NCBI GenBank assembly: GCA_964291675.2
Contig: OZ219866.1
Coordinates: forward strand, 416,001-480,000
Length of the DNA stretch: 64,000 nucleotides
Source of the DNA: Alphaproteobacteria bacterium
GTDB lineage: Bacteria > Pseudomonadota > Alphaproteobacteria > MPNO01
Direction of reading: 5' to 3'
Under the pieces are notes generated by a model. That model was not told the DNA's origin, did no database searches, and saw only the letters and a program-made list of their open reading frames with translations. This document shows positions 9,368-13,219 of the stretch, piece by piece. The position numbers were made by a program, and so were the translations under genes. The stretch's first letter is position 1. Each line of letters starts with the position of its first letter.

Positions 9368-10597
9368 ATGGCCGACAAGACGATACTCGTCGTGGGAACC
9401 TACGACACCAAGTCCCCGGAGCTCGCCTACATGGCCGACCGCATCCGCGCGCTCGGCGGCGGCGTGCTCGCCATGGACATGAGCGTGCTGGGCGATCCCG
9501 ACATCCCGGTCGACTACTCGAAGCACGACGTGGCCCGGGCCGGCGGCGGCTCGATCCGCCAGGCGGTCGATTCCGGCCACGAGAACGCCGCCATGCAGAT
9601 CATGGCCGGCGGCGCATCGGCGCTCGCCGCCGAGCTCCACGGACGGGGAGAATTCGACGGCATCGTGATCCTCGGCGGCACCATGGGGACCGATGCGGCG
9701 CTCGACATCTGCGGGGCGCTGCCGCTGGGCGTGCCCAAATACGTCGTCTCGACGATCTCCTTCTCGCCGCTGATCCCGCCCGGCCGGCTGTCGGCGGACG
9801 TCCAGATGATCCTGTGGGCGGGCGGCCTCTACGGGCTGAATTCGGTCTGCAAGGCGACGCTCAGCCAGGCGGCCGGCGCCGTGCTCGGCGCCGCGCGGGC
9901 CGCCGAGGCGCCGGCGGAGGACCGCCCGGTCGTCGGCATGACCTCGCTGGGCTCGGCCTCGATGAAGTACATGACCGCGCTGAAGCCCGCTTTGGAGGCG
10001 CGCGGCTACGAGGTCGCCATTTTCCACGCGACCGGCATGGGCGGGATGGCGTTCGAGAGCATCGCCTCGCGAGGCGGGTTCTGCTGCGTGATGGATTTCG
10101 CCCTCGTCGAGCTCGGCAATCTGATGATGGGCTCCGTCGTCAAGGCCGGAGAGGACCGCCTGCTGGGCGCGGGCCGCGCCGGGACCCCCCAGATCGTCGC
10201 GCCTGGATACCTCAACCTGGTCCACATCCCGACCTGGCAGGACCCGCCGCCGCAATTCGCCGACCGGCCGTTCCACACCCACAACCGGCTGGTCAAGTCG
10301 GGGCTGCTCGACGCGGCGGAGCGCAGGGCCATCGCCCGCGAGGTCGGCCGGCGGCTCGGGGAGAGCCGGGGGCCCGCGCATTTCATCCTGCCCAGGCGGG
10401 GCATCGTGCAATGGGACCGGCCGGGATACGAGGCGCACGACCCCGAGGGAATGGCGGCCTTCGCCGACGAGCTCCGCAAATCCGTCGCCGCGCCGGTCCG
10501 CATGACCGAGCTCGACTGCCACATCAACGACCCGGAATTTTGCGCCGCGGCGCTGGAGATCTTCGATCGCTGGGTCGCGGACGGCACGATCGGCTGA
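9368..10597 (+). CDS. Tm-1-like ATP-binding domain protein (UPF0261)
   Basis: VGTYDTK N-terminus, GGTMGT, FHATGMGG, HIND motifs. Confidence 0.88.
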   Translation: MADKTILVVGTYDTKSPELAYMADRIRALGGGVLAMDMSVLGDPDIPVDYSKHDVARAGGGSIRQAVDSGHENAAMQIMAGGASALAAELHGRGEFDGIVILGGTMGTDAALDICGALPLGVPKYVVSTISFSPLIPPGRLSADVQMILWAGGLYGLNSVCKATLSQAAGAVLGAARAAEAPAEDRPVVGMTSLGSASMKYMTALKPALEARGYEVAIFHATGMGGMAFESIASRGGFCCVMDFALVELGNLMMGSVVKAGEDRLLGAGRAGTPQIVAPGYLNLVHIPTWQDPPPQFADRPFHTHNRLVKSGLLDAAERRAIAREVGRRLGESRGPAHFILPRRGIVQWDRPGYEAHDPEGMAAFADELRKSVAAPVRMTELDCHINDPEFCAAALEIFDRWVADGTIG

Positions 10598-10648
10598 GGC
10601 GGGAGCCGAGCCGAAGGACGCTGCTGCTCCCCCCATCGTCACCCCCTC

Positions 10649-10777
10649 CGTCATGGCCGGACTCGATCCGGCCATCCACGCGGCGTCTCCACCCGCACGA
10701 CGGTCGGACGGGAGGGGTGGCGGCGCCCGTGAGTGCCCGAAAGAGCCTCGGACTCGCTCCGGAGGCCGGGGATGACG
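10649..10777. repeat. REP family B inverted pair (second copy degenerate)
   Basis: CGTCATGGCCGGACTCGATCCGGCCATCCAC and a downstream copy ending GGGGATGACG. Confidence 0.7.
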
Positions 10778-10869
10778 GTGTAGGGCGGGGCCCTATCGAC
10801 GGTCGCGCCGAAAAGCCTTTCGCTCTTCCCCCAAATCCCCGATCTTTGCGCGGATGGTGATGCAGGACG

Positions 10870-10980
10870 GGAGGTCAGGCGCCGGTGTTCGAGGAGCCGA
10901 CGCCTCTCACCGCCTCCGTCCGGCTCGGTCTCGTGCTCGGCCTGGCCTATGGCGCGACTGCCTCCCGGCGCTCGTGCCTT
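10870..10980 (+). pseudogene. Degenerate duplicate of the RBS and 5' end of the YeeE/YedE gene
   Basis: VFEEPTPLTASVRLGLVLGLAYG vs VFEEFGFEELTPLAASVLLGLALGLAYG at 12197; shared GCGCCGGTGTTCGA. Confidence 0.85.
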
Positions 10981-11069
10981 CCGCGACGGCTTGTGCCCAT
11001 CGGTGCGACGCATAACGTGTTAACGGGACGGCGTGCTAGCCGCCGGCTCAGAGTGATTGGAGCCGAAGT

Positions 11070-11879
11070 ATGAGCCCAGATGGATGGCTCGGACTGCTGG
11101 CGGCCGCTTTGGGAGGCGGCCTTGTCGTCAAGTTCCTGGATATCCTGTACGCGGAGGTTCGGCGCCGTTCGGAGAGCTCGGAGGAGGCCGAGCGGTTCGT
11201 CGACGAGCATCTGGATCCGCTGCTCAAGGCGGCCGACGAGCTGGTGGGCAAGCTCGTGTCTTTGGCTGGCGAGGACTTCACAAGTCTCCGCAACGTGGAT
11301 CCGAATGCCGACCGTATCGACAACAACGACTTCGTGAGCCTGGTTTTCCTCATGGCAACGTTTTGGGCTAACATCGAAATCATTCGCCGCGAAGGACTCT
11401 CCGTATCGATCGTGAAGGACGTTCGCGGCCAAAGACTGCAAAGCTTCTTGAATTGCATCGAGTCTCGCGGGGTGCGGATCGTCGACCGAATTTCGCAACG
11501 CGCAGTCGGGGAGCTGATGCTCGCCAACCGCCAGGACGGCACCTTGGAGTCCCGGTTTTTCGTCGATTTCGTACGCTCGATGGAGACCGATCCAAACGCC
11601 CGCCGTTGGCTGCGGCCCTTGGCTCACGCGCTGTCGCGCACCCGCCATACATCGGAACGCCAGAGACTCTTGAAGTACGGCATCGTCATTCACGCGATGA
11701 TCGACTCGCTCGATCCCGGGTATCAGGTCACGCGACGGCGCCCTTCGTACCCGAACAAGCTGTCCAACAAGTCGTGGCGGGATCTGAAATACCGAGTTTT
11801 CGGCCAATACCTAAAGTTCGTATCGGAACCCGAAAAATATACAGGGCCGCCCAAGAGAAAGCGGCCCCGAAGAGGGTAA
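11070..11879 (+). CDS. Hypothetical protein with N-terminal TM helix and basic C-terminus
   Basis: 269-aa ORF with GGAG RBS; visibly lower GC and different codon usage than neighbours. Confidence 0.8.
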   Translation: MSPDGWLGLLAAALGGGLVVKFLDILYAEVRRRSESSEEAERFVDEHLDPLLKAADELVGKLVSLAGEDFTSLRNVDPNADRIDNNDFVSLVFLMATFWANIEIIRREGLSVSIVKDVRGQRLQSFLNCIESRGVRIVDRISQRAVGELMLANRQDGTLESRFFVDFVRSMETDPNARRWLRPLAHALSRTRHTSERQRLLKYGIVIHAMIDSLDPGYQVTRRRPSYPNKLSNKSWRDLKYRVFGQYLKFVSEPEKYTGPPKRKRPRRG

Positions 11880-12137
11880 GGCGGCGCGAAGGGACTTTGG
11901 CTCTCTCGCTTGGAGACAACGGAACGTCCGTTGGGCCGCCTCTATTCCGTTGATGTGGGTTCACATCTCAAAGCGGATCTTAGCGCGGAAGCACTCAAGA
12001 GTCCACAGCTATGCGCTCTTCCGCCAAGGGTGCCCCCGTGGAAGATCGTTGCACGGATGGCATTCCCTCCGACAGGAGCGTCTTCGGACGAAAACCCTTT
12101 TCCTTCAGGGATTATTCCTCAATCTTGAAGGTGAAGG
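11844..12137. ncRNA. Candidate structured non-coding RNA, strand unresolved
   Basis: At least seven stems readable by eye, e.g. CAACGGA/TCCGTTG, GATGTG/CACATC, GCGGAAG/CTTCCGC, AAGGGT/ACCCTT, CCTTCA/TGAAGG. Confidence 0.45.
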
Positions 12138-12196
12138 CAGCGCTACCATCGTCACGCGCCGCCCCGTGTCACCAATTCTGGGTGGAGCAAGCGCCG

Positions 12197-13219
12197 GTGT
12201 TCGAAGAGTTCGGTTTCGAGGAGCTGACGCCGCTCGCCGCCTCCGTCCTGCTCGGCCTCGCGCTCGGCCTCGCCTATGGGGTGCTGGCGCAGCGGAGCGC
12301 CTTCTGCCTGCGCCGCAGCCTGGTCGGGCGATGGCGCGACTGCCTGCCGGCGCTGGGCGCCTGGGCGATGGCGCTGGCCTGCGCGATCGCCGGCACCAGG
12401 CTCGCCGTGGCGGTCGGGCTGATCTCCTTCGAGGAGCACCGCTTTCTCGCCGCCGACCTGCCGCTCGCCTCGGTGCTCGTGGGCGGCGCGCTGTTCGGCG
12501 CCGGCATGGTGCTGACCGGCGGCTGCGCCTCGCGGCTCGCGGTTCTGGTGGGCACGGGGAATCTGCGGGCGCTGCTGGTGCTGGTCGTCTTCGCGGTGGT
12601 CGCGCTGGCGGCGATGAAGGGTGCGCTCGCGCCGCTCCGCCTCGCGCTCGGCGCCGCGTCCGTCCCGGACGGCGGGGCCTCGCTCGCCGACCTTCCGGGC
12701 GGCGAGATCTGGCCGCTGGCGCTGGCGCTGGCGCTTGCCGTGCTCGCGTTGCGCACCGCCGCGCCGCTCTCCCATCTGGCGATGGCCGGCGCGATCGGGC
12801 TGCTGGTGCCGCTCGGCTGGGTCGGCACCGGGTTCCTGCTGCTCGACGACTTCGATCCCATCCCGCTGCAGTCGATGGGCTTCACCGGGCCGATGGCCGA
12901 CACATTGTTCTGGACGGTGGCGGCGACCTCGATCCCGGCGGGGTTCGGTACCGGGCTGGCCGCGGGCGTCCTCGCCGGCAGCCTGGCGGCGGCGCTGGCG
13001 GCGGGCGAGTTCCGCTGGCAGAGCCTGGAAGGCCCGCGCCAGACCGGGCGCTACCTCGCCGGCGCGGCGATGATGGGGGTGGGCGGCGTGCTGGCCGGCG
13101 GCTGCACGGTCGGCGCCGGCCTCTCCGGCGTCTCGACGGCGAGCCTCGCGGCCCTGCTTGCGCTGGCCGCCATGGCGGGGGCGGCGCGGACCACTGGGGC
13201 GGTGCTGGAGCGGCGGTAG
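12197..13219 (+). CDS. YeeE/YedE-family sulfur (thiosulfate) transporter
   Basis: FCL motif, GMVLTGGC and GGVLAGGC repeats, hydrophobic; next to sox genes. Confidence 0.9.
   Translation: MFEEFGFEELTPLAASVLLGLALGLAYGVLAQRSAFCLRRSLVGRWRDCLPALGAWAMALACAIAGTRLAVAVGLISFEEHRFLAADLPLASVLVGGALFGAGMVLTGGCASRLAVLVGTGNLRALLVLVVFAVVALAAMKGALAPLRLALGAASVPDGGASLADLPGGEIWPLALALALAVLALRTAAPLSHLAMAGAIGLLVPLGWVGTGFLLLDDFDPIPLQSMGFTGPMADTLFWTVAATSIPAGFGTGLAAGVLAGSLAAALAAGEFRWQSLEGPRQTGRYLAGAAMMGVGGVLAGGCTVGAGLSGVSTASLAALLALAAMAGAARTTGAVLERR

What the first reader, a model, noticed from the sequence alone, without database searches (positions are those of the whole stretch)
11844..12137. ~290-nt densely structured non-coding region abutting the orphan gene: candidate novel protein-ncRNA system
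Seen: stems CAACGGA/TCCGTTG (11917-11933), GATGTG/CACATC (11952-11967), GCGGAAG/CTTCCGC (11985-12024), a multiloop closed by AAGGGT/ACCCTT (12026-12099) enclosing CCGTG/CACGG and TCCGA/TCGGA, and CCTTCA/TGAAGG (12102-12131). GCGGCCC (11861-67) can pair with GGGCCGC at 11844 or at 11933, and CAACGGAA (11917-24) can alternatively pair with TTCCGTTG (11945-52), giving a pseudoknot or two-state switch. On the minus strand the region ends GGGGCCGC-TTTCTCTT, terminator-like and overlapping the gene's 3' end. It does not resemble RNase P, tmRNA, SRP or tRNA as I recall them, and there is no reverse transcriptase nearby. Inference: an antitoxin or regulatory RNA that travels with the protein.
Basis: partly seen in the sequence, partly recalled or inferred. 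Interest (0 to 1): 0.8.

Follow-up and report, generated by a model that had tools for sequence, protein, structure and literature searches.

The report
Antisense RNA partner of orphan gene
The left half of the flagged region is a conserved small RNA gene on the opposite strand that overlaps the end of an uncharacterised protein gene and always travels with it, probably to keep that protein in check; the right half is unrelated leader sequence of the next gene.

Summary
The 294 nt fold better than shuffles (z -3.15 on +, -4.32 on -). The region is composite, though.

Window 11832-12005 is conserved beside every assessable homologue of the 269-aa orphan protein (56 of 56 loci; exactly the 4 of 41 related genomes that carry the gene). 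Three stems covary: 99 double-change cells against 29.9 in shuffles. Family-wide, the minus strand carries a sigma-70-type promoter (39 of 51 loci score at least 8 of 12, against 220 of 5100 shuffles). It also carries an intrinsic terminator written into the protein's last codons (36 of 51 loci, against 2 of 51 on the plus strand).

The best reading is a ~140-nt cis-antisense sRNA, convergent with the gene and overlapping its 3' end. It works like a type I antitoxin or lambda OOP. The partner protein is unusually large, all-helical and has no Pfam, NCBIfam, PDB or BFVD match.

Window 12085-12181 is the native yeeE leader, also present in genomes without the module. The RNA reaches no Rfam 15 threshold. 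Expression, strand and toxicity are inferred, not shown. The proposed two-state switch is not conserved.

The parts
11070..11879 (+). Orphan protein gene (269 aa, P0001). All-alpha, with a hydrophobic or amphipathic N-terminal helix, and a conserved C-terminal K-Y-L-G-P-P-K-R-R-P tail that is co-encoded with the antisense terminator.
   Evidence: ORF. No Pfam, PADLOC, PHROG or NCBIfam family. At least 400 homologues and 519 clusters at 50% identity. AF2 model pLDDT 82.9, with no PDB or BFVD fold match.
11832..11869 (-). Intrinsic terminator of the antisense RNA: an 11-pair stem (8 G-C) at 11869-11842 followed by a T-rich tail, lying inside the last codons of the CDS.
   Evidence: It is the only terminator-like site in 10600-12400. 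An equivalent site is present on the minus strand in 36 of 51 loci, against 2 of 51 on the plus strand and 27 of 1020 shuffles. The stem covaries through synonymous or compensating codon changes.
11878..11971 (-). Conserved structured core of the RNA. P1 is 11880-88/11932-40; P1b is 11892-95/11926-29; the variable P2 hairpin is ~11900-11920; the conserved unpaired linker is 11941-51; P3 is 11952-57/11962-67.
   Evidence: CM R1 hit of 85.5 bits. Covariation on the MAFFT alignment A3 and on the CM alignment A4. The minus-strand MFE of 11973-11830 reproduces the consensus, z -4.01. The core is 87-88% identical to G010 and G004, against 77-80% for the CDS.
11977..12005 (-). Sigma-70-type promoter of the antisense RNA: -35 TGGACT 12005-12000, 17-nt spacer, -10 TAAGAT 11982-11977, inferred start near 11970. 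This is the right-hand end of the conserved module.
   Evidence: Family-wide position-specific conservation: -35 T50 T33/G13 G47 A45 C39 A27/T15 of 51; -10 T38 A48 T28 A22 T30 T27; spacer of 17 nt in 41 of 51. BLAST conservation with G010, G004 and G009 ends at 12005-12006. The window's own copy matches only 8 of 12 and fell below the scan tool's threshold.
12007..12084 (.). Non-conserved junction DNA between the module and the yeeE leader.
   Evidence: No match in G010 or G009 and only weak similarity in G004.
12085..12181 (+). Native leader or upstream region of yeeE/yedE (sulphur transport). The gene probably starts at GTG 12182 and ends at 13219.
   Evidence: It aligns with the yeeE upstream region of G001, G004, G008 and G009 whether or not they carry the module. 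Pfam Sulf_transp 5.5e-47.
10790..10954 (+). Decayed second copy of the yeeE leader plus its first ~70 coding bases. It forms the left direct repeat that flanks the inserted segment.
   Evidence: The left copy resembles the G009/G001 allele and the right copy the G004/G008 allele.

Best explanation
Window ~11970 to ~11832 on the minus strand is the gene of a ~140-nt cis-antisense small RNA. It has its own sigma-70-type promoter (12005-11977). The transcript would start with a 5' hairpin (P3). A conserved unpaired linker follows, then a long irregular stem (P1, P1b and the variable P2). It would end at an intrinsic terminator embedded in the last codons of the convergent 269-aa orphan gene. Because the RNA is fully complementary to the mRNA's 3' UTR and its last ~35-45 coding bases, the most likely action is duplex formation with that mRNA and lower protein output, for example through RNase III cleavage. 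That is how 3'-overlapping type I antitoxins and lambda OOP work. Gene and RNA form a ~945-bp module (11064-12006). The module has no conserved promoter for the protein gene and has spread patchily among Proteobacteria and onto plasmids. Shown here: linkage, covariation, and the promoter and terminator signals. Inferred: transcription, strand, antisense repression, and toxicity of the protein.
For: Linkage. R1 hits 56 of 67 sources. All hits are on the gene's strand side, one per locus, directly 3' of the stop codon, with none elsewhere in 304,603 nt. The 11 sources without a hit end inside the gene, end 38-56 nt after the stop, or hold truncated gene fragments. In whole genomes, R1 matches exactly the 4 of 41 that carry the gene.

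Structure. On a MAFFT alignment not fitted to structure, 81.7% of cells pair against 70.9% in shuffles (0 of 500 reach it). There are 99 double-change cells against 29.9 in shuffles, and 16-31 when partners are slid. On the CM alignment the figures are 88.3% and 178 against 51.6.

Strand. A minus-strand promoter in fixed geometry scores at least 8 of 12 in 39 of 51 loci, against 220 of 5100 shuffles. A minus-strand terminator is present in 36 of 51 loci, against 2 of 51 on the plus strand, and the scan tool finds it in the window. At interior stem positions, plus-strand A.C/C.A cells (equal to G.U on the minus strand) outnumber plus-strand G.U cells 35 to 7 on A4 and 33 to 11 on A3.

Other points. 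The core is more conserved than the CDS, 87-88% against 77-80%. The 5' flanks show no promoter enrichment, 7.25 against 7.16. P2 lengths of 21-58 nt are not multiples of three, which argues against coding. Plasmid copies in cultured strains carry the same element at 74.2 and 70.2 bits.
Against: There are no expression data. Only contig-level runs were on hand, and they give no strand, start or level. The window's own promoter is weak, at 8 of 12, and the scan tool reported no promoter at its threshold. The MFE strand comparison is inconclusive: minus is more stable in 23 of 52, with a mean difference of +0.7 kcal/mol favouring plus. Two helix-end positions carry conserved plus-strand G.U pairs, 39 and 11 of 53. 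By my criteria 15 of 51 loci lack a terminator. Classical type I toxins are small peptides, and this protein has 269 aa with no evidence of toxicity. The strongly conserved unpaired nucleotides are not needed for a purely cis-antisense mechanism and hint at a protein partner.
Confidence: 0.6

Rival explanations
1. The functional molecule is the sense strand. On this reading the element is a structured 3' UTR of the orphan mRNA, acting as a stabiliser, a 3'-UTR-derived sRNA, or an autoregulatory binding site for the encoded protein.
For: Watson-Crick covariation fits both strands equally. Two conserved plus-strand G.U pairs sit at helix ends. The MFE test slightly favours plus. The mRNA has no plus-strand terminator before the element, so it must read through it (2 of 51).
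Against: This does not explain the conserved minus-strand -35/-10 pair at fixed spacing, the minus-strand terminator, or the excess of interior A.C cells. The two readings can coexist.
Confidence: 0.15
2. The small RNA acts mainly by binding the protein, as a type III-like antitoxin or as the RNA subunit of a ribonucleoprotein. Its antisense position would then be secondary.
For: Unpaired nucleotides are highly conserved across classes: the linker and the internal loops. The core is more conserved than the CDS. RNA and protein show strict 1:1 linkage. The protein has a basic C-terminal tail.
Against: The basic tail is largely explained by the terminator hairpin written into those codons. No RNA-binding domain was detected. 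Nothing here tests binding.
Confidence: 0.15
3. The element acts as DNA, as a recombination or attachment site that moves the promoterless gene cassette. An attC-like site would be one example.
For: The module has sharp ends (11064 and 12006) and sits at different places in close relatives. The ORF starts a few bases inside the left end, as in a cassette.
Against: No integrase, transposase or neighbouring cassettes recur beside it. The insertions are flanked by ~60-200-nt repeats of host sequence, not by short core sites. The promoter and terminator signals are unexplained on this reading.
Confidence: 0.05
4. The region is chance structure or a decayed coding sequence.
For: The right part, 12007-12181, has an unremarkable z-score.
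Against: The left part shows covariation, strict linkage and length variation that is not a multiple of three. Read-through ORFs into it (P0030, P0045) are not conserved.
Confidence: 0.02

Closest known systems
Type I toxin-antitoxin loci with 3'-overlapping antitoxin RNAs (Bacillus subtilis bsrG/SR4, yonT/SR6)
   Same: A convergent, structured 100-180-nt antisense RNA with its own promoter overlaps the 3' end of the partner mRNA and lowers its level. I saw only the search listings and the starts of the abstracts of PMC3834814 and PMC5848175. The locus is mobile and patchily distributed.
   Different: Those toxins are peptides of about 38-58 aa; here the protein has 269 aa and a globular helical fold. 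There is no sequence similarity. The host phylum differs. Toxicity and repression are untested here.
Phage lambda OOP RNA acting on cII
   Same: A short antisense RNA is transcribed convergently and is complementary to the 3' end of a protein gene whose product is harmful when over-made. OOP suppresses CII activities (start of the abstract of PMC5869508; the RNase III dependence is recalled).
   Different: OOP sits in a phage regulatory circuit. It has no conserved multi-stem core, no terminator inside the partner's codons as far as I recall, and the proteins are unrelated.
Rfam RF02356 BjrC1505 (alphaproteobacterial sRNA)
   Same: It is the only Rfam model to align over its full length (1-140) on the minus strand, 11990-11837. 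It shares the layout of a 5' hairpin, middle stems and a terminator.
   Different: The score is 13.1 bits against a gathering score of 50. Ten true BjrC1505 loci hold no homologue of the protein and no R1 hit. BjrC1505 is described as trans-acting (passages of bioRxiv 10.1101/2022.01.24.477521).
TnpB/IscB omega-RNA modules of IS200/IS605-type elements
   Same: One protein gene and a conserved structured RNA at its 3' end move together as a compact unit.
   Different: No RuvC, HNH or zinc-ribbon domain was detected. The RNA signals are on the opposite strand. No transposon ends or guide-like flank were seen. The comparison with omega RNA rests on recall.

Membership tests
Type I toxin-antitoxin system | An antitoxin RNA gene encoded in cis, overlapping or base-pairing with the toxin mRNA | tested here: met
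   At the sequence level only. A conserved minus-strand promoter and terminator bracket a covarying RNA that overlaps the 3' UTR and the last ~35-45 nt of the CDS. Transcription itself is not shown.
Type I toxin-antitoxin system | The toxin is a small, usually hydrophobic peptide (typically under ~60 aa) | tested here: not met
   The ORF has 269 aa and homologues have ~250-300 aa. Only the N-terminal ~25 residues are hydrophobic.
Type I toxin-antitoxin system | The protein is toxic when expressed without the RNA, and the RNA lowers its translation or mRNA stability | not testable with these tools
   This needs expression and knock-down experiments. The indirect hints are broken copies that keep an intact RNA (L022, L025) and the IS hit in G009.
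Rfam RF02356 BjrC1505 | The score reaches the family's gathering threshold (50 bits) | tested here: not met
   13.1 bits, E 3.7-7.8. R1 finds nothing in 10 true BjrC1505 loci.
Any Rfam 15 family | A match at the gathering score in the window or in homologous loci | tested here: not met
   0 matches in the 64-kb window and 0 in 20 diverse loci totalling 106,895 nt.
TnpB/IscB-type RNA-guided nuclease with omega RNA | The protein has a RuvC-like nuclease domain (the OrfB_IS605 family) | tested here: not met
   No Pfam family at E up to 0.1. No PDB sequence match with the family profile. Fold searches give only generic helical bundles with Z up to 7.4; this last result is inconclusive as a fold test.
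Integron gene cassette with attC | Neighbouring cassettes or an integron integrase, and an attC hairpin with core sites at the cassette ends | tested here: inconclusive
   The neighbours in 20 flanks are housekeeping genes and no integrase appears. The core sites were not formally searched.

The most novel reading that the evidence does not exclude
This is a new, widespread class of two-component selfish or defence module. In it, a large (~265 aa) helical protein of unknown fold is held in check by a dedicated, sequence-conserved, multi-stem RNA. That RNA both base-pairs with the mRNA's 3' end and binds the protein, making a hybrid of type I and type III toxin-antitoxin logic. The RNA's terminator is co-encoded with the protein's conserved C-terminal tail.
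Probability: 0.2. Interest if true: 0.8.

Novelty: new variant of a known kind. Interest (0 to 1): 0.62.

Why it matters
Neither the RNA (no Rfam 15 match) nor the protein (no Pfam, NCBIfam, PADLOC, PDB or BFVD match) appears in the libraries searched, and a text search for the two annotated protein accessions found no paper. Together they form a compact module with unusually clear comparative signals: a promoter, three covarying stems, and a terminator overlapping codons. If the protein is toxic, this would extend antisense-RNA (type I-like) control from small membrane peptides to a full-size protein. It would also give a function to a family of about 500 sequence clusters. The overlap of a terminator hairpin with conserved codons is a tidy example of dual coding. 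Copies on plasmids of cultured Methylobacterium and Rhizobium strains make it directly testable.

Tried and rejected
Rfam. The gathering scan of the window gave 0 matches and so did the scan of 20 homologous loci. E-value scans gave only sub-threshold rows: RAGATH-5 15 bits, BjrC1505 13.1, suhB/mmgR 11.6, DUF805b 10. I followed up BjrC1505 and rejected it.

Protein identity. Nothing meaningful came from Pfam, PADLOC, PHROGs or NCBIfam. The PDB sequence profile gave 0 matches. Foldseek against PDB and BFVD gave no match at E up to 0.001. VIA-align wide gave only generic helical bundles with Z up to 7.4, including ClyA at 7.3, which is below what counts for helical proteins. The ESM Atlas returned only unnamed clusters. 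Ten longer family members have no Pfam domain.

Expression. The only runs offered are kept as contigs. X1, a metatranscriptome, holds a 152-nt near-identical piece inside the CDS and a relative's contig that matches only 11879-11955. X2 is probably the source DNA. Neither gives strand, ends or level.

Trans pairing. Pairing of the sRNA with the mRNA's 5' region is no better than with shuffles: mean z -0.5, and 3 of 40 below -2.

MFE strand test. Inconclusive.

Other searches. The viral contigs hold no relative of the protein. A phylum-wide sample gave 0 of 400 other genomes, so the family is rare in species representatives. There is no conserved neighbour gene and no conserved 5' flank or promoter.

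The alternative pairings are not kept in members whose P1 is GGTGG/CCACC, AGCAGATC/GATCTGCT or GACAGCC/GGCTGTC. I judged this by eye and did not count it.

I did not use the look-up of encoding contigs, which is described as closed. I did not request supplementary files of papers.

Full report
Setting. The window is high-GC (~70-75%), but 11050-12150 drops to 56-61%. The orphan ORF at 11070-11879 (+, 269 aa, P0001) lies between a UPF0261/Tm-1-like gene that ends at 10597 and a yeeE/yedE sulphur-transport gene. The latter is in the frame of 12011-13219, with a probable GTG start at 12182. The flagged 11844-12137 spans the last 36 nt of the ORF and most of the ~300-nt gap before yeeE.

Observation. 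The 294 nt fold better than dinucleotide-preserving shuffles on both strands: z -3.15 on + and z -4.32 on -. The stretch is single-copy in its genome, and no Rfam 15 family reaches its gathering score anywhere in the window.

The region is composite. Three of eleven other same-genus genomes carry the gene. Their DNA matches window 11064-12006 at 78-81% identity and then stops. In G009 and G010 this ~945-bp module lies downstream of yeeE. In G000 and G004 it lies upstream, and seven genus members lack it.

Window 12085-12281 aligns with the native yeeE upstream region and 5' coding end of genomes with or without the module. A second, decayed copy of the same sequence lies at 10790-10954. On its own, 12007-12181 folds unremarkably, z -2.3 and -1.9.

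A conserved element beside every homologue. The protein has at least 400 homologues at 55-84% identity among the 120 listed. All are unnamed or 'hypothetical' and none has a Pfam domain. They come from Alpha-, Beta- and Gammaproteobacteria. A profile search found 519 clusters at 50% identity.

I collected 9 genome loci and 56 metagenome loci. The ~95 nt after the stop codon are recognisably conserved even at 45-60% protein identity. A covariance model (R1) built from 39 of them hit 56 of 67 sources. Every hit was on the gene's strand side directly after the stop, one per locus, with nothing else in 304,603 nt on either strand.

The 11 sources without a hit fall into three groups. Six contigs end inside the gene: L069, L072, L074, L079, L081 and L082. 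Two end 38-56 nt after the stop: L038 and L040. Three hold truncated gene fragments: L029, L071 and L078. In whole genomes, R1 matches exactly the 4 of 41 that carry the gene, once each. Within the genus the core is more conserved than the CDS, 87-88% against 77-80%.

Structure. On a plain MAFFT alignment that was not fitted to any structure, I tested three helices: P1 of 9 pairs, P1b of 4 and P3 of 5. They give 81.7% paired cells against 70.9% in shuffles (0 of 500 reach it). Double-change cells number 99 against 29.9 in shuffles, and 16-31 when the 3' partners are slid by 1-3 columns. On the model-fitted alignment of 53 distinct sequences the figures are 88.3% and 178 against 51.6. RNAalifold recovers the same helices on its own.

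A variable hairpin, P2, sits inside P1b. All 42 distinct P2 segments fold into at least 4 pairs. Their lengths run from 21 to 58 nt and are not multiples of three. Eight minimal members lack P2 altogether. This rules out a decayed CDS for the conserved part.

In the window, P1 is 11880-88/11932-40, P1b is 11892-95/11926-29, P2 is ~11900-20 and P3 is 11952-57/11962-67.

Which strand. About 32 nt beyond P3, most loci share a box that reads as the -35 consensus on the minus strand. A 17-nt spacer and a TAnnnT-like hexamer follow. I tested a fixed geometry in which the -10 box ends 2-9 nt from the model's edge. In it, 39 of 51 distinct loci score at least 8 of 12, against 220 of 5100 shuffles.

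The column counts are -35 T50, T33/G13, G47, A45, C39, A27/T15, and -10 T38, A48, T28, A22, T30, T27. The spacer is 17 nt in 41 of 51. This box is exactly where conservation with G010, G004 and G009 ends.

On the other side of the core, the minus strand carries a GC-rich hairpin followed by a T-tract in 36 of 51 loci. The same segments read on the plus strand give 2 of 51, and shuffles give 27 of 1020. In the window, the scan tool finds this as the only terminator-like site in 1.8 kb, at 11869-11842 plus tail.

That hairpin lies in the codons for the nearly invariant G-P-P...R-R-P tail. Its two arms change together, for example CCG to CCT with CGG to AGG. The protein's C-terminus and the RNA's terminator are therefore co-encoded.

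At interior stem positions, plus-strand A.C/C.A cells (which are G.U on the minus strand) outnumber plus-strand G.U cells. The counts are 35 to 7 on the fitted alignment and 33 to 11 on the MAFFT alignment.

Some results point the other way. Two helix-end positions carry conserved plus-strand G.U pairs. An MFE comparison of the two strands is inconclusive, with minus more stable in 23 of 52. The window's own promoter matches only 8 of 12.

The minus-strand MFE of 11973-11830 reproduces the family consensus with z -4.01: a 5' hairpin, a linker, a long stem and a terminator.

Context and mobility. The 5' flanks share no sequence and show no promoter enrichment. The upstream gene is often co-directional and ends 10-60 nt before the start codon; examples are SDR, DnaE, ComM and DUF748. 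The downstream gene is often convergent; examples are MBL, aldehyde dehydrogenase, GSDH and KsgA. No transposase or integrase recurs.

The family was found in 0 of 400 other genomes sampled across the phylum and in no viral contig. It does occur on plasmids of Methylobacterium radiotolerans JCM 2831 and of Rhizobium sp. There the RNA element, its promoter box and its terminator are also present.

In this genus the inserted segment is flanked by ~60-200-nt direct repeats of host yeeE sequence that derive from different alleles. This points to acquisition by recombination rather than transposition.

Broken copies exist. L022 and L025 have in-frame stops but keep an intact RNA element. In G009 an IS1595-family element sits in the loop of the terminator hairpin.

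The protein. The AF2 model is confident (pLDDT 82.9, pTM 0.79) and all-alpha. No solved or viral structure matches beyond generic helical bundles. No family library and no PDB sequence profile recognises it, and the ESM Atlas lists only unnamed clusters. Its function is unknown. Any toxicity is inferred only from the architecture of the locus and the presence of broken copies.

Interpretation. The best-supported reading is a cis-antisense sRNA gene convergent with the orphan gene and overlapping its 3' end. It would work like the 3'-overlapping type I antitoxins bsrG/SR4 and yonT/SR6, and like lambda OOP acting on cII. For those systems I saw only search listings and the starts of abstracts.

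It is not a classical type I member, because the partner has 269 aa. The strongly conserved unpaired nucleotides keep open the idea that the RNA also binds a protein. I found no trans pairing with the mRNA's 5' region.

No expression evidence could be obtained. The only runs available are contig-level and say nothing about strand or ends. BjrC1505, the sole Rfam model to align full-length, scores 13 bits against 50 and is unlinked to the protein.

Verdict. The finding is real for its left half, with new boundaries and a new strand. The right half is ordinary leader DNA of yeeE. The module is an undescribed RNA-protein pair of a known general kind, and it is testable in cultured plasmid-bearing strains.

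Noticed in passing
window 12085-12140, and the yeeE upstream regions in L004, L005, L007 and L010: A ~55-nt conserved leader motif lies upstream of yeeE/yedE in genus members with or without the module. It may be a regulatory element of the sulphur transporter. It has no Rfam match.
   Followed up: partly
window 10790-10954 against 12085-12281: The inserted segment is flanked by ~170-200-nt direct repeats of the yeeE leader plus its 5' end. The two copies resemble different alleles (left like G009/G001, right like G004/G008), and the left copy has a 12-nt deletion. This suggests acquisition by recombination with DNA from a relative.
   Followed up: partly
L003 (G010) 1270-2660; L005/L013 (G009): In G009 and G010 the same module lies downstream of yeeE and is followed by a degenerate ~60-80-nt second copy of the yeeE 3' end. 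Both insertion sites therefore touch yeeE.
   Followed up: partly
L019 3738-6037 (G009), equivalent to window ~11850-11859: A ~2.3-kb IS1595-family element (Pfam DDE_Tnp_IS1595 2.5e-37) is inserted in the loop of the terminator hairpin, with a short target duplication. It cuts off the ORF's last codons and splits the RNA's terminator.
   Followed up: yes
L022 ~3363 and L025 ~3513: These copies have in-frame stop codons inside the orphan ORF while the RNA element downstream is intact (47.9 and 61.9 bits).
   Followed up: partly
proteins P0030 and P0045: Two homologues have ORFs that read ~30 codons into the RNA element. The extension is not conserved in other members.
   Followed up: no
L099 1-4898 (Rhizobium sp. 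plasmid): On this conjugative plasmid the module directly follows a 1275-aa hypothetical protein (with only a weak HTH_20 hit) and a DUF3732 protein. This may be a defence-island-like setting.
   Followed up: no
window 11879-11955 in runs X1 and X2: Several contigs from other organisms in the same samples match only the RNA core (12 differences in 77 nt) and diverge on both sides. The core is therefore the most conserved part of the module in that community.
   Followed up: no
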